In this document: piece by piece, positions 1 through 13,326 of the stretch
Numbering within the stretch: the stretch's first letter is position 1
Layout of the letters: the number at the start of each line of letters is the position of its first letter
Source: a virus
Direction: 5' to 3' (one strand)
DNA length: 13,326 nucleotides
UHGV virus genome: UHGV-0203667
Notes under the pieces: generated by a model
What the model was told of the DNA's origin: nothing
Seen by the model: the letters and a program-made list of their open reading frames with translations, nothing else
Database searches by the model: none
Made by a program: the position numbers and the translations under genes

Positions 1-531
1 ATGTTATTTCAGAAAGATAAAGAATCAGAAAACAAAAAGCTTTTTAAAGCAATAGTAAAAATGTTCTTTAAGGAGGCCGCACAGTTCGGGGCTACTATCC
101 TGCTTATTGGCCCTTGGGCAATGGCTATCTTCTTTTACCCTGCTACCTTATTTATTGGCAGTAGCAAGTTCGGCAATGGACCGTTTCATGTGGATACTGG
201 TTTTATAGATTTTCTCCTGATCCGCCCTATAAATGCTGTTCTCAATGCTTTCTACTTCCCCACTAGTCTGGAAGGGTGGGCGGTCACCTGGGGCGTTTTA
301 GGCTTAGCATTTGCAATATGGGTGATCGGCTTTTGGTGGAATGCGATCTGTGTTCTCCTTGATATCGATGGCGGAAAAAGCCGTAGAAGCGGTGGTAGCA
401 GTGGAGCAGGTATTTATGCACATGTAGGTACCAGGGGAGCTAGTGTTACCGCAGGTACCCGATTCGCTGGCGGCTGGCTGAGCATAGGCAAACGCGGCGT
501 TAGTTGGAGAAAAAGCAAAAAACTGTTCTGA
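1..531 (+). CDS. Multi-pass membrane protein with Gly/Ser/Arg-rich basic C-terminal tail; function unknown. The ORF touches the window edge, so the true start may lie upstream or at an internal Met
   Basis: The frame is open from base 1 to TGA 529-531. There are three long hydrophobic segments (ILLIGPWAMAIFFYPATLFIG, FIDFLLIRPINAVLNAFYF, WGVLGLAFAIWVIGFWWNAICVLL). A strong intrinsic terminator follows about 8 nt downstream. Confidence 0.6.
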   Translation: MLFQKDKESENKKLFKAIVKMFFKEAAQFGATILLIGPWAMAIFFYPATLFIGSSKFGNGPFHVDTGFIDFLLIRPINAVLNAFYFPTSLEGWAVTWGVLGLAFAIWVIGFWWNAICVLLDIDGGKSRRSGGSSGAGIYAHVGTRGASVTAGTRFAGGWLSIGKRGVSWRKSKKLF

Positions 532-538
532 CCTACCA

Positions 539-562
539 GGGGGCCATCACGGCCCCTTTTTA
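539..562 (+). terminator. Rho-independent terminator of the 1-531 gene
   Basis: GGGGCC (540-545), loop atcac, GGCCCC (551-556), followed by TTTTTATTT. Confidence 0.85.
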
Positions 563-580
563 TTTATCCCTCAATTAACC

Positions 581-610
581 CCTATTTATCCCCTATTTAA
601 TGCCTATTTA
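581..610. repeat. Three direct CCTATTTA repeats at exact 11-bp phasing (581, 592, 603), with a degenerate copy at about 561
   Basis: Read directly: cCCTATTTAtc cCCTATTTAat gCCTATTTAtt. One repeat per helical turn suggests a phased protein-binding or bent-DNA site. Confidence 0.6.
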
Positions 611-691
611 TTGATTTAATCCGTTTTATGTCACAACCGCCCGGTTGACAGAGTAATAGAGAGGGTGTAACCCTTTTTCGTAATACTAATA

Positions 692-707
692 AAATCAATA
701 AGTTAGC
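692..707. repeat. 16-bp exact repeat AAATCAATAAGTTAGC (partner at 8423-8438)
   Basis: The identical 16-mer occurs at both sites on the same strand. Each lies shortly downstream of the end of a plus-strand gene (531 and 8411). Confidence 0.6.
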
Positions 708-761
708 TTAATAAGCCTTTTCTCTATTTTTGTCAAATTTAACATACCCTAAAAAACTGCA

Positions 762-795
762 AAATCTGGCTGCAAGATTATCTGCAGCTGGATTT
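762..795. other. Imperfect 11-bp hairpin or inverted repeat
   Basis: AAATC tg GCTGCA agattatc TGCAGC tg GATTT. Confidence 0.4.
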
Positions 796-981
796 CTTAC
801 ACCTCATTTTGTGGTATCACCCTGGCTAGTTTGTGCATAAATTGAACAGTTTTTAACATTTCCTCCTCACCTGGTAACCACACAAAAAGCTAAAAACGAG
901 GCACAGATAATCTTAGAGGCCTGTTTTCTTGTTATCACTCTGGAAACGCCGTAGAAGTGATTTTGATGAAAGATGACCTAC

Positions 982-1000
982 CCTATTACACCCCTATTTT
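982..1000. repeat. Second pair of CCTATT(A/T) repeats at 11-bp phasing (982, 993)
   Basis: cCCTATTAca ccCCTATTTT; the same core and phase as the 581-610 cluster. Confidence 0.45.
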
Positions 1001-2011
1001 TTGTTATCACAATTGCATCCTGTGCGGTGTATGGCTATGTACTGAAAGCGGTTTTGGGTGTGGGTGTCAGAAATATCCATTAGCGGTATTAATACCTGTC
1101 AGATGTTCGTCTGAGGTGCCAGGCAGGCGCTCCCCTACCTCCCTTTTTTCTTCTAACAATTCTCAAATATCCGACCACTACTGACCACGTTGCTATTATG
1201 TTAATTCTTAAGCTTTGCTGTATGTTGTGCACATTATTTATTCAGGTGGCTGTACGTAAATTCTGTGCCCACTGATCATGATTTTTAAATCAGATTTTGT
1301 AGTGCGCTTTATTAGTGTAGATAAGATCTATTATGTTAAATGCAATTTTCCCAACCCTTCAAATCAATGACTTACGTGTAAGCATGCACTAACACCCCAC
1401 ACAGCACATTAGCCGTATAGATGGCTATACCCCACATATTTGATTGTTTTGTAGTCATTCCCCTGATCATTTAACCAGTATAGCTTGTTATCTGCAGACC
1501 ACAAAATAGGAATTTACATCTGATTAACATAATCTGTTAGCATGATCACTATTACCCACACAACAATAACCCCATGTAAGCCTCTTCAGGCAATTTATCG
1601 GCGTGTTGGTGTGAACAGTCTTTCATGTTCTTTATGAATGCATTGTCCTGTGTGAGGGAAGGATGGACTGCCTCAGGGGCCATACTTATGATGCCCGGTC
1701 AACATAGCTATTGATAAAATCAACGGGTGTTGATCTACATATTTCCCACACATGAGAGGAAATCAGAGCAAAGAGAGAGGAGAGAGGTTTGTTAGTCACA
1801 TATGGTGATTTGAGCTCATCTCAAACCTTCTACGAAGGCCTTTGCTAGTCAAAATAGGTCAATTGACGGCTAATACAGAGTAAAAAATCAGATGCAATCA
1901 CTCCCCACCTGTTGGGATTAACGGCCCCGAGTCAAGGCCTATGCAACGAGGGTATTTCCTACAACCCCTTTCAGTCATACTCAGGCACCACACCCCGGTA
2001 AATATTACCCT

Positions 2012-2320
2012 ACTACCCCGGAAGATTTCTCCGCACTACCTGTAAAATATTTTTACTACTAACACCCTCGAGACGAGGGCTATTTGCACGAGTTTAACGC
2101 TCTCGGGAAGAGCTATAGGCGATTCTACCTGTGAAGAATTTTCACACCTGTGTGTTTATACAGTCATACTTTCCTGTTTTGCAGTCATTGCACCCATGAT
2201 ACACAGCCTCTAACTACTGAAGATTTCTCACTACTTAACCACCATACCTACCCACACCCCTGAGAATTTCTCACCACTACTACCGAAGATTTCTCACTAG
2301 TACCCCTGAGAATTTCTCAC
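2012..2320. repeat. Iteron field: six direct repeats with core GA(A/G)(G/A)ATTTCTCAC, mostly flanked by ACTAC; candidate replication-origin or regulator-binding array
   Basis: Cores sit at 2021 (GAAGATTTCTCcg), 2219, 2262, 2285 and 2308, plus a degenerate palindromic variant GTGAAGAATTTTCAC at 2131-2145. The last three cores are exactly 23 bp apart. A short AT-rich stretch (taaaatatttttac, about 2043-2056) lies inside the field. A wHTH initiator-like gene lies about 1.1 kb downstream. Confidence 0.65.
2146..2165. promoter_or_regulatory. Candidate second LexA box (weaker)
   Basis: ACCTGTGTGTTTATACAGTC has the full CTGT-N8-ACAG core. It matches 14/20 positions of TACTGTATATATATACAGTA and lies inside the iteron field. 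Confidence 0.3.
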
Positions 2321-2342
2321 TCTAATAGATAAAGGAATAGAT

Positions 2343-2387
2343 CAATAAAAAGACCTCCCCCCTAACCCCCAGGGGGAATGGGGAGGG
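2343..2387 (-). terminator. Strong rho-independent terminator readable only on the minus strand, with no minus-strand CDS upstream of it
   Basis: The minus-strand RNA reads CCUCCCC auu CCCC cug GGGG uua GGGGAGG followed by UCUUUUUAUU. On the plus strand the hairpin has no U tract after it. Confidence 0.75.
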
Positions 2388-2389
2388 AT

Positions 2390-2830
2390 CAGAGAGTGGG
2401 GAAGGTTTTCTAAGGGAAAAGCTTAACCCACAAATGAAAGCCTAAAGAGCATGAGCGACTCTTTAGGCAATCTGTGTGGGGTGACAATGTATTCCATACA
2501 TGACACGTCACCCAATTGTGTGTGGGGAGCGTAGTGCTATAGCACGTAGCTTTATAGTGTGGAGTCCGGATAAGAGACTTCTGTTTCCAATCCGGACCGT
2601 TTAAGCGAGTGGTTTCTCGCGCGGGTGCACGCACACATATATAAAGGATACACTCATAAATCGAAAATAAGGCCCCTAAATGGCCTTCTGGCTGCATTAA
2701 CCTGTGTGAGTAGTGCAATTGCATTACCTGACCTCTAAATCGCGTTAGAATCGATTTTAGAGCGCTTAAGGCAAAAGTGCTCTCCCTCCCTTGTGGACTT
2801 GCTTGTACCTATAGCACACCTAAATGATAA
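2390..2830. ncRNA. Candidate structured non-coding RNA or structured DNA region (strand unresolved)
   Basis: There is no credible ORF. Hairpins and palindromes:
- 10-bp perfect hairpin at 2440-2468.
- 13-bp hairpin at 2479-2513, flanked by direct TGTGTGGGG repeats (2473-2481 and 2519-2527).
- 12-bp palindrome GTGCTATAGCAC at 2534-2545.
- 8-bp perfect hairpin at 2564-2597.
- Hairpin at 2669-2687.
- 10-bp palindrome TGCAATTGCA at 2715-2724.
- Two mutually exclusive hairpins at 2733-2762 and 2759-2783. The latter has a G-T pair that only works on the plus strand. Confidence 0.35.
2658..2687 (-). terminator. Possible second minus-strand intrinsic terminator
   Basis: The minus-strand RNA reads AAGGCC auuuagg GGCCUU followed by AUUUUCGAUUU. 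On the plus strand there is no U tract. Confidence 0.4.
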
Positions 2831-2839
2831 TAATTCTCA

Positions 2840-2868
2840 TTGACAATTGGTTGACAATATGATAAGAT
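2840..2868 (+). promoter_or_regulatory. Sigma70-type promoter P1 (TTGACA-17-TAAGAT)
   Basis: -35 TTGACA at 2840-2845, 17-bp spacer, -10 TAAGAT at 2863-2868. A second TTGACAAT sits 11 bp downstream (2851-2858) and a third at 3031-3038. Confidence 0.65.
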
Positions 2869-2903
2869 TATAAATAGGGGGAGAAACAGATCCGGAGGTC
2901 AAT

Positions 2904-3053
2904 GTGGAAATTACAGATGTAATAGCGATCATCAACCTGGCTGTACTGTGGTGCGGTGTTGCCTACATAGCCGGAGTAACTGCAATCGACAACCTTGAAG
3001 AAAAAATGATAGATAAATACAAAAAGATTGTTGACAATCTCGCAAATAGCTGA
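2904..3053 (+). CDS. Small (49 aa) single-pass membrane protein, not in the supplied ORF track (GTG start)
   Basis: GGAGG (2895-2899) plus 4 nt precedes GTG at 2904. The translation is VEITDVIAIINLAVLWCGVAYIAGVTAIDNLEEKMIDKYKKIVDNLANS, ending at TGA 3051-3053. It has a hydrophobic N-terminal helix and a charged C-terminus. The gene has its own promoter (P1) and a downstream terminator. Confidence 0.55.
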   Translation: MEITDVIAIINLAVLWCGVAYIAGVTAIDNLEEKMIDKYKKIVDNLANS

Positions 3054-3059
3054 TAAAAT
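3031..3059 (+). promoter_or_regulatory. Sigma70-type promoter P2 (TTGACA-17-TAAAAT) embedded in the 3' end of the small ORF
   Basis: -35 at 3031-3036, 17-bp spacer, -10 TAAAAT at 3054-3059. It would start a transcript at about 3066, upstream of the 3109-3141 terminator and the 3183 gene. Confidence 0.5.
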
Positions 3060-3108
3060 ATAAATCATAGGGTAATTCTCATCATAGTGAATTTCCTTAA
3101 ACAAAAAT

Positions 3109-3141
3109 GCGGGGGCTTGTCTTAAGTTCCCGTTTCTTTTT
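3109..3141 (+). terminator. Rho-independent terminator or attenuator immediately upstream of the rep-like operon
   Basis: GCGGGGGCUU gucuu AAGUUCCCGU forms a 10-bp stem that includes three G-U pairs, so it folds only as plus-strand RNA. It is followed by UUCUUUUU. Confidence 0.7.
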
Positions 3142-3182
3142 AACCGTATATCATTCTGATTCGAATTATAGGAGGCCCCGTT

Positions 3183-3398
3183 ATGGCAAGCAACGGACCG
3201 ACTAGCCCCCTGGTTAGCTGGACTACTGATGAGATCGTCGAAAACGTGCTCAGCGGCAAGTTTTATAAAAATTCTGTTTATGCTTTTATCCGTCGTAATA
3301 AAGGAAAATATCCACACATTGAAGCGGCAATTTTAGAACTGAACCGTCTTCGCCTTGAGCGTGAGCTGGCTAAATACACCAACAACATTGATAAATAA
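3183..3398 (+). CDS. Small hypothetical protein (71 aa)
   Basis: AGGAGG sits 7 nt upstream of the ATG. The C-terminal half is basic and helical. The gene is immediately followed by the rep-like gene. Confidence 0.7.
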   Translation: MASNGPTSPLVSWTTDEIVENVLSGKFYKNSVYAFIRRNKGKYPHIEAAILELNRLRLERELAKYTNNIDK

Positions 3399-3411
3399 TT
3401 ATGGGGGAACT

Positions 3412-4308
3412 ATGGCAAGTAATTACGGGGAGGTTTTTAATCCCCATTTCGAACGCCTCATTCAGTACACTTTTGATAAACCAGTAGCAACAACAATTGC
3501 TAATAAAAAGACTGGAAAAACAAAAGAGCGATTTAATTTAGACCTGATAGAGGTAACAATTTATGGAAAAATGGCAGGTTTTCATTTAAACGGGCAAGAA
3601 ATATTTATCTCAGAGCAGACCTTAGCAAAAATATGTGGTGTGAGTGATAGAAAAATCATCGAATCTATCAAAACTCTGGAAAATGCCGGGCTTATTTCTA
3701 AAGAAAGCCGGAAAGGTATGTCTAACATTTACAAACTGTTAATTACTCCTTCTCAAATCTGCAAAATGTGTGATGAACAGAAGATAGAACCAATGAGTAA
3801 TGCAGGTGGTGAAGATAAACAGCCTCAGGAAGCCCCAAAACAAGCCACACAGCAAGCTAAAAAGGCTAAAGTAGTGCAATTGCCTACCCAAGACACTAAA
3901 GCGCCTCAAATTAACGCTGTTAGTGACAAGCCACGCCGGGGCCGTCCTGTGAAAGATGTAACCGATGGGGGCTGGATTGTCCTGGGTGAGAGTGAAGCTA
4001 AAGATAGAATGCGCTCACTGTGGGAAAGCAAATACAAAGGTTTAAATAAACGTTGCCCGATCCGTTTGTCAAAGATTCAGGAGGATTTTTACACCACAGA
4101 GGAGGTAATACGCCATAAAGGCAATAGAGACGGTGAAATCTGGAAACCGGAAGAATACTGGCATTTAACCAGACCTGTTTTTATTTTTGCAAATAAACTT
4201 ATTGGGATGGGATTTGAAATATTGTTAGATCAAACTTACGGAGATTATCCTGAAATATTGTGGAGAAATGTTAGAAAGAATAAAAAAGGCATTTTAGAGT
4301 TTAGATAA
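3412..4308 (+). CDS. Putative replication-initiator/O-like DNA-binding protein: N-terminal winged-HTH, Q/A/K-rich linker with AT-hook (RRGRP), C-terminal domain
   Basis: The start is moved from 3355 to ATG 3412 (GGGGGA SD; removes the overlap with the 3183 gene). The motif ISEQTLAKICGVSDRKIIESIKTLENAGLISKESRKG is typical of wHTH initiator or DnaD-like N-termini. KPRRGRPVKD is encoded around 3931-3948. The iteron field lies upstream. Confidence 0.6.
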   Translation: MASNYGEVFNPHFERLIQYTFDKPVATTIANKKTGKTKERFNLDLIEVTIYGKMAGFHLNGQEIFISEQTLAKICGVSDRKIIESIKTLENAGLISKESRKGMSNIYKLLITPSQICKMCDEQKIEPMSNAGGEDKQPQEAPKQATQQAKKAKVVQLPTQDTKAPQINAVSDKPRRGRPVKDVTDGGWIVLGESEAKDRMRSLWESKYKGLNKRCPIRLSKIQEDFYTTEEVIRHKGNRDGEIWKPEEYWHLTRPVFIFANKLIGMGFEILLDQTYGDYPEILWRNVRKNKKGILEFR

Positions 4309-6308: not shown

Positions 6309-8411
6309 ATGGCAATGAAGGAAGTCGCCAGACTAACAAACGTTATTTACTGGGACTCTGATAAATCCTCCTGGCGAAAAGAAGTTAAGCGCTTGGAGGA
6401 TTATAAAAAATCCTGGAAGAAAGCTACCGACGATATAGCTAAAGCGGATTTTAAATCTAATCAGGCTGTGCTCAGAACACAAAGAACACGCGCTAAGGTG
6501 GAAGAGCAGATCGCCAGAGCACAGAAGAAACAACGTGCTCAGGCTGTCAGCCGTCTGACCGGGGGCAATAATCCGGAGCTCTCCTCTATGCGCAAGTTCT
6601 ATCAGCAGCAAGCCAGAGAGGCCGCCAGACAACAAAAACTGTTAGATCGTAGTGTTGGAGATGTTCAGCACAGAAAAGCACGTGTAGGGGCCAACAGTGC
6701 ACGAATCAGCAGCATGTTTGATGGCTCCCTGGTTGCTCAGTTCCAATCCAGAATTCAAAGAGTTAATGCTGATTATGCTAAAGGGGCTATTAACCTGCAG
6801 ACCTATAATCAGAAAATGGCCCGACTCAGATCTGAAATGAAGATGGCAACAGCAGAGGCCGGAAAATTTCAGAGCAAACTGGATAGAGTTGCGATCACAG
6901 GATCTAAGCTGCATGACAACCTGGGGAAACTAAATTCTACTTTAGGCAAGATAGCTATTGGCCTTACTGCCGCTGGCTGGGGTGTTCAGCGTGCTGTTAG
7001 TGGTGCTATGGGTAGCCTTGCAGATCGCAACAGTGCCTACTTCGGTTTGATGGCACAGAACAAGGATGATAAAGCCAAGACTGATCAGCAGATGGCCTAC
7101 GTCAAAAGAATCTCTTATGACTACGGGATGGATCAGCGTGAGACCGAAGGCGGTTTTATGCGCTTTGCTGCAGCCACACCGAGCATAGAAGAGAAAGATA
7201 AACAGGCTCTTTTTGAGGCTATGGCTATTAAAGGTCGCTCAGTGGGTGCTACCGCAGACCAACAGAACAGGGCTATCGTTGCACTAGGGCAAATATATAG
7301 CAAGGGCGGTCGGGTGTATGCGGAAGAGCTTAAGGGCCAACTTTCTGAAGCCCTGGCAGGTTCTCAGGTAGATTTCACTAAGGCCGCTATCGATGCCGGA
7401 GTCATCAAGAAAGAGGAAGAATTTAATAAAGCCCTTGAAGATGGCAAGATCACCATGGATAAGCTTCTCCCTTCTTTGGTGAAAATCTGGTCTGCAGCCA
7501 AGAATACGAAAGCCTTTGCTGAATCCATGAAACAGCCAGAAGTAGCAATGCAGCGCATGAAAAACAGCTTTAACGAGCTGGCGATTCAGTTTATGGGTGT
7601 TGTGGATCCTGCCGATGGCGTTGTTAGCTTATCTGAATCTCTGATCTCCATCTTCGAAGACCTCACCACTGATATGGACGGCAGCGGGAGCGCGGCAAAA
7701 CAGTTTGGTGAAGCAGTCGGTGCTGCCATGCGGGAGATCATGTATTGGGTAGGCTTCGCTAAGGGATATATCGAGGTCAAGGCTAAAGAGTTCGGCATGA
7801 CCGGATCAGAGGTTGGCGAGCTTATCGGGAAACTAGTAGTCGGCTTAGCTGGTCTGAAAGTTATTACCACACTGCTTTCCCCTCTAACCGGATTTGTTTC
7901 ACTTGTCACCCAACTGATAGCCTTGTTAGGTAAAATCCCTGGTATGAGCAAGCTTATGGCATCTGCCTCAGGTGGAACGGCAACAGGAGCAGCAGTTATC
8001 AGTGCAGGCTCTAACGCTGAAAGAAGCTTCATTGATGGCAAGACGCAGGAAATGAGTAAGGAGAACTCAAAACAGGGTGCTTTGTTTGAGCTGGGAAGAT
8101 TTGTCAGCAATGCTGGCGCACTGTTCACACCTGGCGGTGATACTGGTCCTTTGTTCGATCAGGTCAAAGGCTGGTTTAATAAAGGGCCAACATTGACAGT
8201 AGACACTGGCATCAGACCAACACCAACGGGTGGCATAGCTATCCAGAATGGTGGATATCAACCAGTCCAAGTAAATGTAGCCCCACAAGGTGAGATTTCC
8301 GGCAAATGGGAGATAACCATCGATGAGGGGGGAATTGCCAGGGTGATCCAGAAGGAAGTCAGCGATCAGTTGGATTGGAAAGCCACACAGGAATCTAACC
8401 AGCTTTTCTAA
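6309..8411 (+). CDS. Phage tail tape measure protein (700 aa)
   Basis: The N-terminus is a long K/R/Q/A-rich coiled coil. The central region GQIYSKGGRVYAEELKGQLSEALAG is typical of the tape-measure core domain. A hydrophobic segment LIGKLVVGLAGLKVITTLLSPLTGFVSLVTQLIALLG follows, then a Gly-rich C-terminus. A GAGG SD lies upstream. Confidence 0.85.
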   Translation: MAMKEVARLTNVIYWDSDKSSWRKEVKRLEDYKKSWKKATDDIAKADFKSNQAVLRTQRTRAKVEEQIARAQKKQRAQAVSRLTGGNNPELSSMRKFYQQQAREAARQQKLLDRSVGDVQHRKARVGANSARISSMFDGSLVAQFQSRIQRVNADYAKGAINLQTYNQKMARLRSEMKMATAEAGKFQSKLDRVAITGSKLHDNLGKLNSTLGKIAIGLTAAGWGVQRAVSGAMGSLADRNSAYFGLMAQNKDDKAKTDQQMAYVKRISYDYGMDQRETEGGFMRFAAATPSIEEKDKQALFEAMAIKGRSVGATADQQNRAIVALGQIYSKGGRVYAEELKGQLSEALAGSQVDFTKAAIDAGVIKKEEEFNKALEDGKITMDKLLPSLVKIWSAAKNTKAFAESMKQPEVAMQRMKNSFNELAIQFMGVVDPADGVVSLSESLISIFEDLTTDMDGSGSAAKQFGEAVGAAMREIMYWVGFAKGYIEVKAKEFGMTGSEVGELIGKLVVGLAGLKVITTLLSPLTGFVSLVTQLIALLGKIPGMSKLMASASGGTATGAAVISAGSNAERSFIDGKTQEMSKENSKQGALFELGRFVSNAGALFTPGGDTGPLFDQVKGWFNKGPTLTVDTGIRPTPTGGIAIQNGGYQPVQVNVAPQGEISGKWEITIDEGGIARVIQKEVSDQLDWKATQESNQLF

Positions 8412-8422
8412 TATTGTGATCT

Positions 8423-8438
8423 AAATCAATAAGTTAGC
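8423..8438. repeat. 16-bp exact repeat AAATCAATAAGTTAGC (partner at 692-707)
   Basis: Identical to 692-707. It lies 12 nt after the tape measure stop codon. Confidence 0.6.
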
Positions 8439-8460
8439 CTGACCGGATAAACTCCAGGCA

Positions 8461-8493
8461 AGAAAAAAGCCCCTAAGTGTTAACAAAGGGGCT
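8461..8493 (-). terminator. Rho-independent terminator, strong on the minus strand and weak at best on the plus strand
   Basis: The minus-strand RNA reads AGCCCCU uuguuaacacuu AGGGGCU followed by UUUUUUCU. On the plus strand the stem is followed by CUUCUCC. Confidence 0.75.
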
Positions 8494-8913
8494 CTTCTCC
8501 GGTATCCTTTTGATGCGGGGCAAAACCTGCTAACAAAAATCAACCTCTCGCGAGACTAATGTTAGCAGGTTGCCGGAAGGTAAGTCAACTCCGGCCTATA
8601 AACCTTAAAGCGACTATAAAATTGCCCCGCCAATTGTGATGATCCGACCTTTGAGGCGGGTCCGGTGCCCAGGGGGTGCAGTGATGCACAAACCAGGCAA
8701 CGATAAACAGGCTAACAGTGATAGCGGCGCTCTCTCAGCGCACTAAATCCTAACCAGTCCGGGAAAGAGGCTGGCTCTATCGACCGCTCATGCACGGGAC
8801 AATGCATACCTGATAAAGGATTCTCACAAGGGACCAATCGCGAGAAAAGAAGTGGAAAGGGGCTGATTTGTGGTGTATCACTACGGCCTCAAAAGACACC
8901 CTATTGCCTTTTT
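8494..8913 (-). ncRNA. ORF-free, highly structured roughly 420-nt region between the last minus-strand CDS and its terminator; candidate structured 3' UTR or ncRNA
   Basis: The supplied track has no ORF here. A perfect three-way junction spans 8515-8630: outer stem GCGGGGCAA/TTGCCCCGC (9 bp), inner stem ACCTGCTAACA/TGTTAGCAGGT (11 bp, with a 24-nt loop holding the palindrome TCTCGCGAGA), and inner stem GCCGGA/TCCGGC (6 bp). Further hairpins are GTGCA gtga TGCAC (8676-8689) and GCGCT ctctc AGCGC (8727-8741). The strand is assigned from the terminator orientation only. Confidence 0.4.
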
Positions 8914-9372
8914 TCAGCCTCTCCCCACATTTGACCAGTATTTGATTGCACCGATCAAATCATCATAGTGGCGCATTGCATCATTGAAGCCTTTATAGCT
9001 TGCCCATTGTGGGGAAACCTTGTTGTTGCTGAATTGCCCACTAATCAGGATAGTCTCCAGAATGTCGGCGTATCGCTTGCCAATTCGCTTCCTGACGGCC
9101 TCAGAGCTCCCACCCTTTACGATTGCATTAATCAGGGCTTTTGTGTGTCTCAGGCTCTCATAGAGCATTGCAGCGTGGGCAGATTCCATAAAGGAGCGCT
9201 TAGGCAGATCACCCCACCCCTCAGAATGAATTGCTGCCAATGTGGCGTAATTCAGGCCGCTATAGTGTTTCCCGTCATCCCAGCCAACCGCTACACCTTC
9301 CATCTGTGAGAGCTCTTTATGCAGCTTATCCATCATGCGCTTGTCTATGGTGCAACGGACTTTCGGACTCAT
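8914..9372 (-). CDS. Putative head-tail joining or tail-completion type virion protein (152 aa)
   Basis: ATGA start/stop overlap with the upstream gene. The motif AAIHSEGWGDLPKRSF resembles the HEFG..P.RPF motif of HK97 gp10-like and morphogenesis proteins. This was recognised by eye only. Confidence 0.6.
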   Translation of the reverse strand: MSPKVRCTIDKRMMDKLHKELSQMEGVAVGWDDGKHYSGLNYATLAAIHSEGWGDLPKRSFMESAHAAMLYESLRHTKALINAIVKGGSSEAVRKRIGKRYADILETILISGQFSNNKVSPQWASYKGFNDAMRHYDDLIGAIKYWSNVGRG

Positions 9373-10181
9373 TTGTTGATCTCCGTGATGTCATCAAGCA
9401 ACATGTTGGCCTTATCAATCATCGTTTCGTGGAACTCATTCGACACGACAGACTTATCACCTGCTGCAATCTTTCCCGCTGCCTCTCCCTGTGCATATTC
9501 CCCGCGATGCTTAGCCCTGGTTGATTTCGTAGCAGCATTGCCAGCGTTACTACCCTCTTTAGCACTGTTAACAGCACCCTTTTGCTGTGTTTTATTCACC
9601 TTCTTACTGTTAGTGAAAACTCCGGCATTTTCGACCATCTTCACCTTGAAGGTGCGGAATTCTTCAAAAGTGCAATCAATAGTGATGCAGTCGCCAGAGG
9701 AAGAGCTACGCTTAACTTCACATTTCGTCATGATGAAGTTCTCAAGGAGTCCGACATCTTCACCCACCAGGCTGATAATCTGGCGCTTGTCTCTCATTTC
9801 CATAAGTGCCTGAACAGCGGCAGCAGGGCGCATAGATTCACGGGGATTATCTGGATCAGTGTTCCGGTCGATGTAGTTCTCTTTCCGGATGATATGAGGG
9901 GAAGAGGTAATAATACCCGTAAAGCTGACAGATTTATCTTTAATGACGGCATGGTCTGACATGGTGGTGCCATCCTCGACCGCATAGCTCGATTTCTCAA
10001 CAGGGAACGAATAGCTGACATCAGAGATAGAGTCAAAGAAGATAGCCACATTATCGGTATAGTTGAAGCCATCCATCATATTTTTGTTTTGTGAATATCC
10101 CCCACACATAACAGTGAATGCAGGAGATCTCGACTCAGCTTGTTTTGCAGCTGTCAGAGCATCACTAGCCATATTAAACAT
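9369..10181 (-). CDS. Putative virion structural protein (270 aa) with K/A/G-rich C-terminal region; the N-terminal half is reminiscent of Dit-like/baseplate-type domains (weak call)
   Basis: GGAGG lies upstream. The start may be ATG 10181 or ATG 10172 (MASDALT), which has better SD spacing. It sits inside the structural operon. Confidence 0.6.
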   Translation of the reverse strand: MFNMASDALTAAKQAESRSPAFTVMCGGYSQNKNMMDGFNYTDNVAIFFDSISDVSYSFPVEKSSYAVEDGTTMSDHAVIKDKSVSFTGIITSSPHIIRKENYIDRNTDPDNPRESMRPAAAVQALMEMRDKRQIISLVGEDVGLLENFIMTKCEVKRSSSSGDCITIDCTFEEFRTFKVKMVENAGVFTNSKKVNKTQQKGAVNSAKEGSNAGNAATKSTRAKHRGEYAQGEAAGKIAAGDKSVVSNEFHETMIDKANMLLDDITEINK

Positions 10182-10587: not shown

Positions 10588-11631
10588 TTATTTAGCCTTG
10601 GCTTTTGCCAGAGCAGCGGCGGCGGTGTTTTTAACACTCACTTTAACCACCACCTCGGGCATCATATTCATAAATGCGTATGAGCTCTCGCAAAAGACCT
10701 CGCGCTTAGCTCTTGAATCTTGCATATACATGAAAGCTTCACGTGCAGCGCCGTTTGCCAGCTGCAGATTGCGAGCGCAAGGGCCAAAAAATTGAGTATA
10801 AACACCCATATCGCCCAGTGCATAAGGCTGGAATTGTGGGACCAGATAAGCAGTATTCTCTGGCAGACTATCCATTTGCACCACACGCAGGGCTAAGCCC
10901 GGAATGCGGAAGGTCGGGAAGCCCGGCAGAATATCCTCAGGGAACATCAGACCTTTGTCGGTAATGTTCTGATTGCCGAACAACAGCACTTTACGAAGCA
11001 GCTCGTCAGTCTGAATTGCAGCAAAGAGTTCAGCACGGCAGAACAGGGTGAAACCACGCAGGGCACGAACGACACCACGCTGTTTAACCTTGCTCAGTGC
11101 AACCAGGTCCTGCAGCTGTTTAAGGATATCTTGAGCTAGATCCACTTCAGAGGTGGACTGTTCTACTCCCAGCAGTTCGCACACATTCAGTTCTTTACCC
11201 TTGGTGAGGATAATTTTGTTCTCAAAGAGAGCAAGCTGGCGTGCTTCTTCGTGGGTCTGGCGTAAGCCTTCGCCAAGCTGAATAACACGACGAGCGGTTA
11301 CAGACTCTAAATTCTCTTCGGAATCTTTGCCCGGAACACGGATACCTTGCCAGTCTGACGGGAATATGGCCGAGCTGGCGGCTGTAAAGGCCATGTCGCC
11401 CGTGCCCGTTTCACGCTCATCTGCGGTAATGGTAGCCATCTGTTCACCGTAGCGCGGATACTGACCGAAAGCGGTTTGTTTCACCCTGCGAACTTTGTCG
11501 TACTCAAATTTGAACGTCGAAGAATAGACGGTAGTATTAAACACGTTCATTGCTGAAATAATCTGGTTATCCAGCGGGATATCTTTAATCAGACCACACA
11601 GATCGCGAACTTCGAATTCTTTCTTAGCCAT
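10588..11631 (-). CDS. Major capsid protein, lambda gpE-like family (347 aa)
   Basis: The start is reset to MAKKEFEV at 11631, with AAGGAGG 6 nt upstream. The track start at 11730 gives a Cys-rich extension that overlaps the upstream gene. The size, the position after a roughly 110-aa decoration-like gene, and the C-terminal pattern (...ESSYAFMNMMPEVVVKVSV) resemble lambda gpE (...SAPLMLLADPDEFVSVQLA). Confidence 0.75.
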   Translation of the reverse strand: MAKKEFEVRDLCGLIKDIPLDNQIISAMNVFNTTVYSSTFKFEYDKVRRVKQTAFGQYPRYGEQMATITADERETGTGDMAFTAASSAIFPSDWQGIRVPGKDSEENLESVTARRVIQLGEGLRQTHEEARQLALFENKIILTKGKELNVCELLGVEQSTSEVDLAQDILKQLQDLVALSKVKQRGVVRALRGFTLFCRAELFAAIQTDELLRKVLLFGNQNITDKGLMFPEDILPGFPTFRIPGLALRVVQMDSLPENTAYLVPQFQPYALGDMGVYTQFFGPCARNLQLANGAAREAFMYMQDSRAKREVFCESSYAFMNMMPEVVVKVSVKNTAAAALAKAKAK

Positions 11632-11642
11632 TTTCAACCTCC

Positions 11643-11978
11643 TTATTGTGCAACACGCAAATCGCCATTGCTGGCAGCAACAACAGCGGCTAAGCCGTCT
11701 TTGTCCACATAGGCCGGATTGATGTAGCAACCTTTGTTCGCAACAACGATAAAGGAATCACCAACTTCAGCACGTTCTACAACCAGCAGCGGAGTTTTAT
11801 CGGTGTGCGTTGCTTTAACGAAGGTCTCAACCTCGCCAGCCTCAGTCACCACAACAACAGTGCCAGCCGGAATCTCAGCCTTAACTTTGTTTTTAACTTC
11901 AACGTCGCGAATACTAAATTGCTCATCTGCGGCGTATGAAATGATGTGTCCGCGTGTGCGGATAGTCATATCTCTCAT
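11643..11978 (-). CDS. Putative head decoration/cement protein (111 aa)
   Basis: AGGTGA lies upstream of the ATG. It is a beta-rich roughly 110-aa protein immediately upstream of the capsid gene, the gpD position in lambda. The family assignment is tentative (gpD-like versus DUF2190-like). Confidence 0.65.
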   Translation of the reverse strand: MRDMTIRTRGHIISYAADEQFSIRDVEVKNKVKAEIPAGTVVVVTEAGEVETFVKATHTDKTPLLVVERAEVGDSFIVVANKGCYINPAYVDKDGLAAVVAASNGDLRVAQ

Positions 11979-12452
11979 TTGATCACCTGCGATTTAAATT
12001 AACTCCCCTCAAAGGGCTCAGGTATAACCTCTCAAACCACGACAGGCTCGGGCCGAAAAGTTATGCCGGAAATCTAAAGGGGGATTGATATAAGGAGAGG
12101 GAGATAGCCCCGCACCGTCCAAGCGGGGGCTATTCCATATGGGGAAAACCAACAACAGTTGGCTGATAGTTCACTGCATGGTTACGGTTGCTAGAGAGCA
12201 CTATCACGAAAGGCACTCCCCCGAATCAGTTCAGGCTGCGGTCACATCAGCGGGGAAATACCTTTCGGGATAGCTACCCACACCGAAAACCCGCAAAAGA
12301 AAACTGTGTGGATAACTAGCCCAATAGGAGAATTAATCGACCACTCTAAGATGATCAGGGTAGTGTTATTTATAAGGCGGCACCGCTACCTGGTCGCCGT
12401 TACTTTGGAGGAAAATACGGCAAATCACCTTCGCTAAATGATTCACGGTATA
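11979..12452 (-). other. Roughly 470-nt ORF-free structured leader between the LexA-controlled promoter and the head genes
   Basis: There is no ATG ORF with an SD. Structures include a 10-bp bulged stem ATAGCCCCGC/GCGGGGGCTAT (12104-12133), CCAAC aaca GTTGG (12149-12162), CCACAC/GTGTGG (12279-12311) and others. No hairpin followed by a U tract was seen on the minus strand. Confidence 0.5.
12307..12315 (-). promoter_or_regulatory. Perfect DnaA box (TTATCCACA on the minus strand)
   Basis: The plus strand reads TGTGGATAA at 12307-12315. It is a single copy, so chance cannot be excluded. Confidence 0.3.
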
Positions 12453-12470
12453 CTGTATATTATATCAGTA
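12451..12470. promoter_or_regulatory. LexA (SOS) box
   Basis: TACTGTATATTATATCAGTA keeps CTG-N10-CAG intact and matches 15/20 positions of TACTGTATATATATACAGTA. All mismatches are A/T swaps in the spacer. It overlaps the -10 element and the start site of the minus-strand promoter. Confidence 0.8.
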
Positions 12471-12487
12471 TTTACTCACATTGTCAA
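12459..12487 (-). promoter_or_regulatory. Perfect consensus sigma70 promoter (TTGACA-17-TATAAT) directed leftward toward the head operon
   Basis: The minus strand reads TTGACA atgtgagtaaatactga TATAAT. The -35 is at 12482-12487 and the -10 at 12459-12464. The predicted start site is near 12452. Confidence 0.85.
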
Positions 12488-12576
12488 CACCCTGATTATA
12501 TAAATTCTAATAATTAGCGTAGTAACGGTATTTTCAGACCTCTATCAATCCCATCAATACGTCACCTCATCCCTGA

Positions 12577-12621
12577 CCTGCTTTGCAGGCTTGGCACACA
12601 GCCAAGGTCGCAGCTATGCGA
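12577..12621 (+). promoter_or_regulatory. Triple tandem hairpin module, copy 2 (partner at 5117-5159)
   Basis: CCTGC ttt GCAGG | CTTGGC acaca GCCAAG | g | TCGCA gcta TGCGA. It shares GCTTG..CAAGG and CGCAGCTATGCG with copy 1, and the stem differences are compensated. Confidence 0.6.
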
Positions 12622-12629
12622 CTCCTATC

Positions 12630-12660
12630 ATCTATCATAACTTTTTCATTCGTGATAGAT
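12630..12660. promoter_or_regulatory. 8-bp inverted repeat ATCTATCA-N15-TGATAGAT (possible operator), with a direct TATCAT duplication
   Basis: Read directly. It lies between the hairpin module and the right-hand small genes. Confidence 0.3.
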
Positions 12661-12757
12661 ATCTTTTGATCAATATCAATGTTTTCCTGGGATTTGCCCG
12701 GCTATAGTTCGAATCAAGGAAGGGGAGCATTGATAGCACCAAAACCGAACAAACAAA

Positions 12758-12772
12758 TCAACTTCTCGCAAA
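12758..12772 (+). repeat. Conserved 5'-UTR motif TCAACTTCTCGCAAA (exact copy at 13301-13315; related TCAACCTCTCGCGAG at 8540-8554)
   Basis: The 15-mer is identical at both sites, on the same strand, and each is followed by a purine-rich SD-like sequence (AAGGTGA or AGGGG). Confidence 0.55.
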
Positions 12773-12783
12773 AGGTGATAGTT

Positions 12784-12906
12784 ATGGGTATCAAGAACAG
12801 TGCCAGCGCATGGCAAAAGGCCAGGTTTCATCACCCACACATTGTTAAGGCAATTGAGGTGGTTGGAGTGTTAGCCCTGATGTTAGCTCTGTGTGTGGAG
12901 GTGTGA
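12784..12906 (+). CDS. Small (40 aa) membrane protein
   Basis: AAGGTGA lies 5 nt upstream of ATG 12784. The translation is MGIKNSASAWQKARFHHPHIVKAIEVVGVLALMLALCVEV, with a hydrophobic C-terminus. The track start at 12679 has no SD and would translate through the conserved UTR motif. Confidence 0.5.
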   Translation: MGIKNSASAWQKARFHHPHIVKAIEVVGVLALMLALCVEV

Positions 12907-12907
12907 G

Positions 12908-12976
12908 ATGGGCAAAGGAGGCAAAGCATTTTTTAATAGGTCTGGCTATCCTGGATGTTCTACTAATCATGATTGA
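12908..12976 (+). CDS. Possible 22-aa peptide (MGKGGKAFFNRSGYPGCSTNHD)
   Basis: GGAGG lies 6 nt upstream of the ATG, and the ATG is 1 nt after the upstream stop. The ORF is very short, so confidence is low. Confidence 0.25.
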   Translation: MGKGGKAFFNRSGYPGCSTNHD

Positions 12977-13008
12977 GCGGAGTTTATGAACAGCATTGAG
13001 AGGAGTTT

Positions 13009-13269
13009 ATGACGGGGGCTAAAGATATCAGGAGACTGAGGGAAGAGCTGATAGCTGAAATTAAAGCTAAGGCAAAGCAAATGGAGATAGCCGCGCAAAT
13101 GGATGTAGCGGAACAGATGTACAAGATGGTTGAAGAGGGAACACCACGACAGGTTATCGCTAAAACCTTCGGTGTGGGGATCGCCACCGTGCACAGAAGG
13201 CTGAAAGCCTATGCCGACTACCACAACATTGAGAGAGGGGAGGATGGGAGATTTAAGAAGAATAAATAG
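13009..13269 (+). CDS. Small HTH DNA-binding protein (86 aa), coiled-coil N-terminus
   Basis: GGAG lies upstream of the ATG. The HTH segment is TPRQVIAKTFGVGIATVHRRLKAY. Confidence 0.75.
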   Translation: MTGAKDIRRLREELIAEIKAKAKQMEIAAQMDVAEQMYKMVEEGTPRQVIAKTFGVGIATVHRRLKAYADYHNIERGEDGRFKKNK

Positions 13270-13300
13270 TAGGAACAGTCCAACAGGTTATTAACTAAAT

Positions 13301-13315
13301 TCAACTTCTCGCAAA
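13301..13315 (+). repeat. Second copy of the 5'-UTR motif TCAACTTCTCGCAAA
   Basis: Identical to 12758-12772. It is followed by GGGG, and the window ends before any start codon. Confidence 0.5.
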
Positions 13316-13326
13316 GGGGTACCGTC

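What the first reader, a model, noticed from the sequence alone, without database searches (positions are those of the whole stretch)
11979..12450. 470-nt ORF-free structured leader upstream of the head genes
The supplied track has no ORF here. My own scan found only tiny unsupported frames, for example a 25-codon GTG frame downstream of GGGGGAG.

The region folds into many local stems: the 10-bp bulged stem at 12104-12133, CCAAC/GTTGG, CCACAC/GTGTGG and the palindrome CCATATGG. It also carries a perfect DnaA box.

Leaders this long are rare in front of phage structural genes. This one could be an antitermination or processing platform, a cis-acting riboregulator, or an RNA with its own function released from the SOS-induced transcript.
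Basis: seen in the sequence. Interest (0 to 1): 0.6.

Follow-up and report, generated by a model that had tools for sequence, protein, structure and literature searches.

The report
Structured SOS-controlled leader RNA before capsid operon
The gap is a real, conserved, about 474-base untranslated RNA leader that folds into many stems and sits between a DNA-damage-controlled promoter and the capsid genes of a small phage-like E. coli plasmid; it matches no catalogued RNA family and probably gates expression of those genes.

Summary
Window 11979-12452 carries no conserved ORF and no coding remnant. It lies exactly between a perfect sigma-70 promoter on the minus strand (TTGACA-17-TATAAT, 12487->12459) and the ATG of a 111-aa gene that precedes the major capsid gene. 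A LexA-type box (12451-12470) overlaps the promoter.

The leader-sense RNA folds far better than shuffles (z -4.9). The opposite strand does not (z -1.0). Across 23 relatives, 127 predicted pairs are 98.9% kept, 11 pairs show compensatory changes, and 41 pairs use G-U, which fits this strand only. The core (12193-12412) varies less than second codon positions of the neighbouring genes.

The DnaA box is incidental. It is one arm of a covarying stem and it decays in other clades. Iterons, the likely origin, lie at 2213-2322.

Rfam gives no match. The element is a 13-kb circular E. coli plasmid family of phage-like or satellite-like character.

Most likely function (inferred, not shown) is a cis-regulatory leader. 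A long-range helix occludes the Shine-Dalgarno sequence. A large G+C hairpin, which is a canonical terminator in the most divergent clade, is followed by a C-rich tract and could stop transcription. This is a candidate new leader RNA family of moderate interest.

The parts
12459..12487 (-). Sigma-70 promoter of the capsid operon. -35 TTGACA at 12487-12482, 17-nt spacer with TG extension, -10 TATAAT at 12464-12459.
   Evidence: 12 of 12 matches, the only promoter-like site found in 11800-13326. Conserved in all four clades; the -10 reads TAAAAT in clade D.
12451..12470 (.). LexA-type SOS box TACTGTATATTATATCAGTA (CTGT-N8-TCAG). It overlaps the -10 hexamer and the transcription start.
   Evidence: single match in the window, about 0.01 expected by chance. 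Kept in clades A-C. Both half-sites are destroyed in clade D. LexA binding itself is not tested.
11979..12452 (-). Untranslated leader RNA of about 474 nt, from the predicted start (about 12451-12453) to the base before the ATG.
   Evidence: z = -4.93 on this strand; 127 pairs in 15 helices; 98.9% of cells paired; 11 pairs with two-sided changes.
12415..12451 (-). 5'-terminal hairpin. It is the most variable part in sequence (pi = 0.17), but a hairpin of type AAUCA.../...UGAUUUGCC can form in the clade A-C variants folded; the clade D 5' end differs in sequence.
12359..12394 (-). Motifs invariant in all four clades: CAGGUAGCGGUG (12381-12392) and AUAAAUAACACU (12362-12373). Candidate H-type pseudoknot formed by GGCGAC/GCCGCC and GGUAG/CUACC.
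   Evidence: The evidence is thin: one compensatory pair and three wobble-preserving changes.
12350..12357 (-). Anti-Shine-Dalgarno sequence UGAUCAUC, the 5' arm of long-range helix 3.
   Evidence: pairs with the SD at probability 0.99 in the window.
12267..12322 (-). Helix 6/7 hairpin, 17+3 pairs. Its 5' arm contains the DnaA-box sequence (12307-12315). The apical loop UUUUGCGGRUUU is conserved in all clades.
   Evidence: C-G to U-G and A-U to G-U changes keep the pairing. Clade D keeps the helix with different sequence.
12208..12266 (-). Helix 8/9 hairpin, 15+6 pairs.
   Evidence: four compensatory pairs within clades A-C and more in clade D.
12164..12206 (-). Helix 10 (7 pairs). It encloses a single-stranded loop with a boxA-like sequence, UGCUCUCUAGCAA, at 12188-12200.
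   Evidence: The boxA match is 11 of 13 and is not significant (0.61 expected by chance).
12149..12162 (-). Helix 11, CCAAC/GUUGG.
   Evidence: A-U <-> G-C exchange in 11 of 22 sequences.
12100..12136 (-). It has no U-tract in the window. The hairpin at the same position in clade D is a canonical intrinsic terminator.
   Evidence: L011 2901-2935, 15 pairs, followed by a T-rich run (the tool's stem line already includes four of these Ts); not scored as a terminator in the window.
12063..12102 (-). C-rich, G-poor tract (C 15, G 3 in 40 nt) directly 3' of helix 12. It is a candidate Rho-utilisation site or anti-SD-like tract.
   Evidence: The role is inferred only.
12005..12082 (-). 3' domain, helices 13-15. 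A long irregular hairpin whose tip carries 80-100-nt insertions in clades B, C and some A members.
11980..11987 (-). Shine-Dalgarno region GGUGAUCA of the 111-aa gene, the 3' arm of helix 3.
11643..11978 (-). First gene of the operon, a 111-aa protein of unknown function. It is followed by the major capsid gene (10588-11631), an 83-86-aa ORF, a Dit-like gene (9369-10181) and a tail-completion gene (8914-9372).

Best explanation
The interval is the 5' untranslated leader of the capsid/tail operon of a 13-kb phage-like E. coli plasmid. It acts in cis as a post-initiation gate on that operon.

Proposed sequence of events:
1. In uninduced cells LexA would sit on the box that overlaps the -10 and the start of a consensus promoter.
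2. After DNA damage the promoter fires and makes a multi-helix RNA of about 474 nt.
3. Within it, UGAUCAUC (+96-103) pairs with the Shine-Dalgarno GGUGAUCA 370 nt downstream. This closes the whole folded domain and hides the ribosome-binding site of the first gene.
4. A 15-pair G+C hairpin (+317-353) followed by a C-rich, G-poor tract offers a point where transcription can pause or stop. In the most divergent clade that hairpin is a textbook intrinsic terminator.
5. Full expression of the capsid genes would therefore need a second input that opens or bypasses the leader, such as antitermination, RNase processing, or an RNA or protein partner possibly supplied by a helper phage.

Shown: the promoter and box sequences, absence of coding, strand-specific stability, conserved and covarying helices, and strong purifying selection.

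Inferred: LexA control, RBS occlusion in vivo, termination, and the nature of the opening signal.
For: - Promoter 12/12 with TG extension, and the only LexA-type box nearby, sit exactly at the 5' edge.
- No other promoter-like site lies between it and the ATG.
- Sense-strand folds give z = -4.93 (window), -5.0 (clade C) and -7.1 (clade D). The antisense strand gives -1.0.
- The consensus structure on 23 leaders has 98.9% of cells paired against 40-48% when partners are slid. It has 11 pairs with two-sided changes against 0-5, and a covariation score of 0.073 against 0.02-0.03.
- 461 G-U cells make the structure valid only on the leader strand: 98.9% paired against 82.7% on the other strand.
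- Helices 6 and 8 persist in clade D (54% identity) through 10 compensatory pairs.
- Core diversity is pi = 0.0116. Codon position 2 of the flanking genes gives 0.015-0.018 and position 3 gives 0.09-0.11.
- The SD is unpaired with probability 0.001 in the window, with its partner at +98-103 (p = 0.99). The values are 0.23 in clade B and 0.115 in clade D. In clade D's homologous segment UAAUCAUU, the G-C pair of helix 3 would become A-U, which keeps a 7-bp pairing with the SD; the computed fold of clade D instead pairs the SD mainly with a different upstream segment (+57-62).
- The clade D hairpin is scored as an intrinsic terminator.
- A C-rich tract follows the hairpin in the window.
Against: - No transcript data exist. 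The start site, the LexA binding and any termination are predictions.
- Helix 3 has no compensatory change within clades A-C and is broken at two positions in clade C, where the SD is about 48% open in silico.
- The window's hairpin lacks a U-tract and is not called a terminator.
- No antiterminator (Q, N, NusG/RfaH-like) is recognisable on the plasmid.
- The family is confined to E. coli with four clades, so covariation rests on few independent events.
- Such extreme conservation of loops (CAGGUAGCGGUG, AUAAAUAACACU, UUUUGCGG) hints at a specific ligand or a trans function that a simple gate does not explain.
Confidence: 0.5

Rival explanations
1. The 5' part of the leader (start to helix 12, about 350 nt) is an RNA with its own function. 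One option is a stable RNA released by termination or processing that acts in trans on plasmid, helper-phage or host targets, as the P4 CI RNA or P1 c4 RNA do. The other is a nascent-RNA element that modifies RNA polymerase in cis to read through terminators, as HK022 put does.
For: - In clade D a near-consensus promoter without a LexA box is followed about 335-370 nt later by a canonical terminator. That arrangement forms a self-contained transcription unit.
- The part upstream of helix 12 is much more conserved than the part downstream: pi 0.012 against 0.035-0.055 in clade A, and 0.047 against 0.126 across A-C.
- Loop and linker sequences are invariant across all four clades, as expected for a binding surface.
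- The 5' hairpin and a 3' G+C hairpin would stabilise such an RNA.
Against: - cmscan finds no C4/CI or any other Rfam family, even at E <= 10.
- No second copy or complementary target of the conserved motifs exists elsewhere in the window.
- In clades A-C the hairpin has no U-tract.
- Helix 3 ties the upstream part physically to the RBS.
- No RNA data exist.
Confidence: 0.2
2. The leader is mainly an RNA stability and processing module. Its long near-perfect duplexes (helices 6, 8/9 and 14) would be RNase III/E substrates, and the 5' hairpin would protect the mRNA. This would set the half-life and stoichiometry of the capsid transcripts rather than switch them on or off.
For: - Three helices of 17-21 pairs and a 5'-terminal hairpin that forms in the clade A-C variants despite sequence turnover.
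- Precedents exist from established knowledge: RNase III sites in the lambda N leader and in T7 early mRNAs.
Against: - It does not explain why single-stranded loops and linkers are invariant, or why the SD is specifically paired.
- Cleavage sites cannot be predicted from sequence.
Confidence: 0.15
3. The conservation reflects a DNA-level site rather than an RNA: a replication origin using the DnaA box, a packaging (pac/cos) site for a helper terminase, or a partition site.
For: - A perfect DnaA box lies at 12307-12315, and DnaA-like 9-mers (up to 1 mismatch) are enriched in the window, 13 against 3.6 expected.
- No terminase is recognisable on the plasmid, so a packaging site must exist somewhere if the element is packaged.
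- Nucleotide conservation is very high.
Against: - The DnaA box is lost in clades B-D while pairing of the stem it belongs to is kept.
- Four 21-nt iterons spaced 23 nt apart lie at 2213-2322, near the O-like initiator gene, and mark a far better origin candidate.
- There are no iterons or A+T-rich unwinding tract inside the leader.
- Substitutions follow RNA rules, including 461 G-U cells that would be A.C on DNA or on the other strand.
- Folding stability is strand-specific.
Confidence: 0.07
4. The interval is a decayed or unrecognised protein-coding gene, either small proteins or the remnant of a head gene such as a protease or scaffold.
For: Four ORFs of 43-45 aa and an 80-aa stop-free stretch occur in the interval.
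Against: - No significant Pfam or PHROG match for any six-frame piece of 32 aa or more (best Pfam E-value 0.14).
- No blastn match in 50,697 phage records.
- Frequent 1-2-nt indels among close relatives across the whole interval.
- Substitutions track base pairs, not codons.
Confidence: 0.03

Closest known systems
rpoS-type long 5' UTR with an inhibitory long-range helix over the ribosome-binding site (E. coli rpoS leader; established knowledge)
   Same: - A leader of several hundred nucleotides.
- An upstream segment pairs with the Shine-Dalgarno region and closes a large folded domain.
- Such leaders are also targets of Rho and are opened by a second factor.
   Different: - No sequence or Rfam relation.
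- The opener (sRNAs with Hfq in rpoS) is unknown here.
- The promoter is SOS-type.
- The operon encodes capsid and tail proteins on a plasmid.
Lambda PR'-tR' late leader (6S RNA) with Q antitermination (established knowledge)
   Same: - A very strong promoter.
- An untranslated leader containing a terminator, placed in front of the late structural genes.
- Clade D reproduces this layout, with a constitutive promoter and a canonical terminator.
   Different: - The leader is 2.4 times longer and multi-domain.
- The window's hairpin lacks a U-tract.
- No Q-like protein was found.
- A LexA box sits on the promoter, whereas lambda uses no repressor at PR'.
P4 satellite CI RNA / P1-P7 c4 RNA immunity leaders (Rfam C4 family; accession recalled from memory as RF01695)
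   Same: - The element is satellite-like or plasmid-phage-like.
- There is a long untranslated leader at the head of an operon.
- RNA-level control is plausible.
   Different: - cmscan gives no match to C4 or any family.
- No seqA/seqB/seqC-type repeated complementary boxes were identified.
- The operon here is structural, not replication or immunity.
RfaH-dependent leaders with the ops element (GGCGGTAGnnTG, JUMPStart)
   Same: - Long untranslated leader.
- An invariant GGTAGCG heptamer about 65 nt downstream of the start, upstream of a possible termination point.
   Different: - The 12-mer is not matched within two mismatches. The upstream GGC is CCA and there is an extra G before TG.
- No RfaH-like gene on the plasmid.
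LexA-repressed promoters of colicin and other SOS genes (established knowledge)
   Same: A 20-bp TACTGTAT...CAGTA box overlaps the -10 and the start of a strong promoter on a small plasmid.
   Different: - There is one box, not the tandem pair typical of colicin operons.
- The right half-site reads TCAG rather than ACAG.
- It is followed by a 474-nt structured leader.
- The box is absent in clade D.

Membership tests
Any Rfam 15 family | Covariance-model score at or above the family's gathering threshold | tested here: not met
   (whole window, gathering thresholds): 0 matches. (11900-13100, E <= 10): only three noise hits at 16-19 bits against thresholds of 37-48.
C4 / P4-CI antisense immunity RNA | Match to the C4 covariance model | tested here: not met
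   No hit.
C4 / P4-CI antisense immunity RNA | Internal box complementary to two target boxes in the same leader | tested here: inconclusive
   One search lists only short two-copy repeats. None has the seqA/B/C arrangement, but weak complementarity cannot be excluded.
LexA-regulated (SOS) promoter | 20-bp palindromic box with CTGT-N8-ACAG core | tested here: inconclusive
   TACTGTATATTATATCAGTA at 12451-12470. The left half is exact and the right half reads TCAG, one core mismatch. The pattern TACTGTAT-N7-CAGTA is unique in the window, with 0.01 expected. The full consensus differs at 5 central positions (one search found no match within 3).
LexA-regulated (SOS) promoter | Box overlaps core promoter elements | tested here: met
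   The box spans the -10 hexamer (12459-12464) and the predicted start.
LexA-regulated (SOS) promoter | LexA binding and derepression after DNA damage | not testable with these tools
   Needs EMSA or ChIP and expression data.
Intrinsic-terminator attenuator in a leader | G+C-rich hairpin immediately followed by a U-tract | tested here: not met
   Window: helix 12 is followed by CUCCCUCUCCUU and is not called by the scan. In clade D the homologous hairpin is called, with 15 pairs and a T-rich run. The feature is therefore met in relatives only.
RBS-sequestering 5' UTR | Upstream sequence pairs with the Shine-Dalgarno sequence in the favoured fold | tested here: met
   Window: P(unpaired SD) = 0.001, with the partner at +98-103 at p = 0.99. 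Shuffled-leader controls give 0.02-0.35. The pairing is also in the MFE and the consensus fold.
RBS-sequestering 5' UTR | Pairing conserved or covarying in relatives | tested here: inconclusive
   Clade B gives 0.23, clade D 0.115 (computed partner is a different segment, +57-62; the homologous segment would keep pairing with one G-C to A-U exchange) and clade C 0.48 with two broken pairs. There is no compensatory change within A-C.
RfaH/ops leader | ops 12-mer GGCGGTAGnnTG on the non-template strand | tested here: not met
   the leader motif CCAGGTAGCGGTG is not among the matches with up to 2 mismatches.
Lambda-type nut site / rrn antitermination | boxA (YGCTCTTTA / TGCTCTTTAACAA) followed by a boxB hairpin | tested here: inconclusive
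   UGCUCUCUAGCAA at 12188-12200 matches 11 of 13, but 0.61 such matches are expected by chance. The short-form scan is at chance level. No boxB-type hairpin was identified. In clade C the sequence reads CGCUCUAAU, and it is absent in clade D.
DnaA-dependent replication origin | Conserved DnaA box(es) next to iterons and an A+T-rich unwinding element | tested here: not met
   There is one exact box. It is not conserved in clades B-D. No iterons are in the leader; they lie at 2213-2322.

The most novel reading that the evidence does not exclude
The conserved 5' two-thirds of the leader (start to helix 12, about 350 nt) may be an autonomous, SOS-induced non-coding RNA of a new family. It would be either a put-like nascent RNA that makes RNA polymerase terminator-resistant for the capsid operon, or a released riboregulator through which this satellite-like plasmid talks to a helper phage or the host. 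The invariant loops CAGGUAGCGGUG, AUAAAUAACACU and UUUUGCGG would form its binding surface.
Probability: 0.15. Interest if true: 0.75.

Novelty: new member of a known kind. Interest (0 to 1): 0.55.

Why it matters
It would add a structurally supported, uncatalogued leader RNA to the small set of RNA elements known to control phage or satellite morphogenesis genes.

It also sits on an uncharacterised family of 13-kb E. coli plasmids. These carry capsid, tape-measure and distal-tail genes but no recognisable terminase or portal. The family is found in hundreds of assemblies but in only 7 of 5,426 complete genomes.

The four clades appear to have swapped control logic. Clades A-C combine a LexA box with a hairpin lacking a U-tract, whereas clade D has no LexA box and a canonical terminator. 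This gives a natural experiment on how mobile elements layer transcriptional and RNA-level control, and a handle for finding out what induces the element and what helper it depends on.

Tried and rejected
- Rfam at gathering thresholds and at E <= 10: nothing.
- megablast and blastn of the interval against 50,697 phage records: nothing.
- Six-frame pieces against Pfam and PHROGs: nothing significant.
- Exact-motif scans of viral contigs and GTDB genome contigs for the invariant motif: nothing. The metagenome scan gave only four more members of the same plasmid family.
- Capsid-protein search in viral contigs: nothing.
- Word-based protein searches found only E. coli relatives, so no distant homologues were available for deeper covariation.
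- ops element: rejected.
- boxA: not significant.
- DnaA-box/origin reading: rejected.
- A 12-nt complementarity between the leader (12238-12249) and codons 9-12 of the 111-aa gene (I2) was rejected. Clades B and C change the leader arm without any change in the coding arm.
- An SD-mimic switch was considered, in which AAGGUGAU in the 5' hairpin competes for the anti-SD. It was dropped because the mimic is absent from several clade A variants.
- The pseudoknot proposal is kept only as tentative.
- Literature searches for these plasmids, or for an rV5-related satellite, found nothing relevant.
- One script timed out, one sliding-window fold scan stopped at 10.3 kb, and one literature query was malformed.

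Full report
CONTEXT

The 13,326-base window is essentially one whole small circular plasmid. Nearly full-length relatives at 92-95% identity are complete 13.2-13.7-kb E. coli plasmids such as pE275a_13 and pVTB448v-4. One 39.6-kb record is a head-to-tail trimer of the unit.

The leader sequence occurs in 7 of 5,426 complete E. coli genomes. It is always on these plasmids and never on a chromosome.

Genes on the plus strand are an O-like/HTH_36 replication initiator (3355-4308), several small unknown proteins and a 700-aa tape-measure protein (6309-8411).

Genes on the minus strand form one operon:
- a 111-aa protein (11643-11978);
- the major capsid protein (10588-11631, PHROG 29);
- an 83-86-aa ORF;
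- a Dit-like distal tail protein (9369-10181);
- a tail-completion protein (8914-9372).

The capsid and tape-measure proteins are only about 25% identical to those of rV5-like myophages. No terminase or portal is recognisable, so the element looks like a satellite or a reduced phage-plasmid. The finding is the gap between the 111-aa gene and the divergent HTH gene.

CHECK OF THE OBSERVATION

The interval holds only 43-45-aa ORFs. Nothing is annotated there in ten RefSeq/GenBank relatives.

- 12104-12133 is the core of a 15-pair helix, 12100-12136.
- CCAAC/GTTGG is a 5-pair helix, 12149-12162.
- CCACAC/GTGTGG lies inside a 17-pair helix, 12267-12322.

The DnaA box TTATCCACA is exact at 12307-12315 on the minus strand. 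The palindrome CCATATGG is present, but most relatives read ATGTGG.

The only promoter-like site in 11800-13326 is a perfect TTGACA-17-TATAAT with a TG extension on the minus strand, 12487->12459. That puts the start at about 12451-12453. The sequence TACTGTATATTATATCAGTA (12451-12470) overlaps the -10 and the start, is a LexA-type box, and is unique in the window. The leader is therefore about 474 nt on the minus strand.

IS IT RNA STRUCTURE, AND ON WHICH STRAND?

The leader-sense RNA has an MFE of -169 kcal/mol and z = -4.93. The complementary strand gives z = -1.03.

I collected 29 distinct leaders from RefSeq, PLSDB, Logan/NCBI assemblies and metagenomes. They fall into four clades:
- A, window-like;
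- B, about 89% identical;
- C, about 76% identical;
- D, about 54% identical, with a 111-aa protein 65% identical and a capsid protein 79% identical.

Clade C and clade D leaders also fold far better than shuffles, with z = -5.0 and -7.1.

RNAalifold on the 23 A-C leaders gives 127 pairs in 15 helices. Counted independently:

| Measure | Structure as given | Partners slid by 1-3 columns |
|---|---|---|
| Cells forming a standard pair | 98.9% | 40-48% |
| Pairs with changes on both sides | 11 | 0-5 |
| Covariation score | 0.073 | 0.02-0.03 |

Forty-one pairs use G-U in at least one sequence, giving 461 G-U cells in all. Read on the other strand, the same structure would be only 82.7% paired.

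Helices 6 and 8 survive in clade D with different sequence, through 10 compensatory pairs out of 31.

The covariation rests on few independent lineages, all within E. coli. The structure is therefore well supported at the level of the main helices (6, 8, 11, 12, 14) and less so in detail, especially in the first 100 nt. That part has alternative folds and no excess stability.

SELECTION

Within clade A, nucleotide diversity compares as follows:

| Region | pi |
|---|---|
| Leader core, 12193-12412 | 0.0116 |
| Second codon positions of the 111-aa and capsid genes | 0.015-0.018 |
| Third codon positions of those genes | 0.09-0.11 |
| 5'-terminal hairpin | 0.17 |

The 3' domain tolerates 80-100-nt insertions at its tip. 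Three single-stranded motifs are invariant in all four clades: CAGGUAGCGGUG, AUAAAUAACACU and UUUUGCGG.

NOT CODING, NOT AN ORIGIN

Six-frame pieces give no significant Pfam or PHROG hit (the best is a Pfam match at E = 0.14). There is no DNA similarity to any of 50,697 phage records. One- and two-base indels are scattered through the interval in close relatives.

The DnaA box reads TTATCCATG in clade B, TTATCCATA in C and ATATCTACC in D, while the partner strand keeps pairing through G-U or compensatory change.

Four 21-nt iterons with 23-nt spacing lie at 2213-2322, upstream of the initiator gene. They are the obvious origin candidate. The leader itself has no iterons.

WHAT IT PROBABLY DOES

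Two features point to a cis-acting gate.

The first is RBS occlusion. UGAUCAUC (12357-12350, RNA +96-103) pairs with GGUGAUCA (11987-11980), the Shine-Dalgarno region of the first gene. This closes a domain of about 370 nt. The predicted accessibility of the SD is:

| Leader | P(SD unpaired) | Note |
|---|---|---|
| Window (clade A) | 0.001 | Partner at +98-103, p = 0.99 |
| Clade B | 0.23 | |
| Clade D | 0.115 | Computed partner is AUCAUC-type sequence at +57-62 |
| Clade C | 0.48 | Two pairs broken |
| Shuffled-leader controls (window row) | 0.02-0.35 | |

In clade D the segment at the homologous position (UAAUCAUU) could still form a 7-bp pairing with the SD, with one G-C to A-U exchange (read), but the computed ensemble prefers the +57-62 partner. 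The occlusion is thus strong in the window's clade and not universal.

The second is a possible stop point. Helix 12 is a 15-pair G+C hairpin. In clade D the hairpin at the same position is flanked by A and U runs and is scored as an intrinsic terminator. Clade D has also lost both LexA half-sites.

In clades A-C the hairpin has no U-tract. It is followed by the only C-rich, G-poor stretch of the leader, with C 15 and G 3 in 40 nt at 12102-12063. That is the composition expected of a Rho-loading site; this role is an inference.

The simplest reading has three steps. LexA keeps the consensus promoter shut. After damage a long RNA is made whose fold limits both elongation and translation initiation. 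A further signal is then needed for full capsid-gene expression. No Q-, N- or NusG-like protein is detectable on the plasmid, so the signal could be host- or helper-derived.

RIVALS

- A released or polymerase-modifying RNA (start to helix 12) is the most interesting alternative. The clade D layout, the higher conservation upstream of helix 12 and the invariant loops favour it. No known family matches and no target was found.
- A pure stability or processing module is possible, given three helices of 17-21 pairs.
- DNA-site and coding explanations are poorly supported, for the reasons given above.

COMPARISON WITH KNOWN SYSTEMS

In function it resembles rpoS-type inhibitory leaders. In clade D it resembles the lambda PR'-tR' late leader.

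It is not a member of any Rfam family, including C4/P4-CI. It does not carry an ops element. Its boxA-like 13-mer is at chance level.

I file it as a new member, a candidate new family, of the known kind 'long structured regulatory 5' leader'.

LIMITS

- There are no expression data.
- Phylogenetic breadth is narrow.
- The start site, LexA control, termination and occlusion in vivo are all inferred.
- The pseudoknot proposal rests on one compensatory and three wobble changes.

Noticed in passing
window 2213-2322: Four 21-nt direct repeats (ACTACYGAAGATTTCTCACTA / ACCCCTGAGAATTTCTCAC) spaced 43, 23 and 23 nt apart. They look like iterons, probably the plasmid origin, about 1 kb upstream of the O-like initiator gene.
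   Followed up: partly
window 2148-2163: A second LexA-type core, CTGTGTGTTTATACAG (CTGT-N8-ACAG), lies immediately left of the iterons next to a weak promoter-like site at 2141-2170. The origin region may also be SOS-responsive.
   Followed up: no
window 531-3183: About 2.6 kb has no annotated CDS in any RefSeq relative. Within it, 2281-2760 folds much better than shuffles on both strands, with z down to -6.1 and -4.9, and several terminator-like hairpins occur. It may hold further structured RNA or origin-associated structure.
   Followed up: partly
window 8401-8640: The gap between the convergent tape-measure and tail-completion genes is strongly structured on both strands, z -4.3 and -4.7. 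It is probably a bidirectional terminator region.
   Followed up: no
window 12784-12906 (+): A 40-aa ORF with SD GGTGAT and a hydrophobic C-terminus. It is conserved without indels and is called as a gene in several assemblies, but is unannotated in RefSeq. It may be a small membrane protein at the head of the divergent HTH operon.
   Followed up: partly
window about 12620-12665: Inverted repeat ATCTATCA...TGATAGAT in the divergent half of the intergenic region, with variable insertions nearby (12572-12634) among relatives. It may be an operator for the 86-aa HTH_7 protein (13009-13269).
   Followed up: no
L037 (NZ_CP043822.1, 39,610 bp): The plasmid p3RM10740 is a head-to-tail trimer of the 13.2-kb unit, and some copies carry broken genes. 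It is either a real multimer or concatemer, or a long-read assembly artefact.
   Followed up: partly
whole window: The element carries capsid, tape-measure, Dit-like and tail-completion genes but no recognisable terminase, portal or tail tube. The capsid and tape-measure proteins are about 25% identical to those of rV5-like myophages. This suggests an undescribed satellite-like or reduced phage-plasmid family restricted to E. coli.
   Followed up: partly
whole window: DnaA-box-like 9-mers (up to 1 mismatch) are enriched: 13 against 3.6 expected, with 0 of 200 shuffles reaching 13. They are scattered rather than clustered.
   Followed up: no
L011-L016, L022 (clade D leaders), e.g. L011 about 2820-2830: A poly-A run of variable length (A6-A10) sits at the tip of the helix-8 equivalent in clade D. 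It may be a slippage-prone tract.
   Followed up: no
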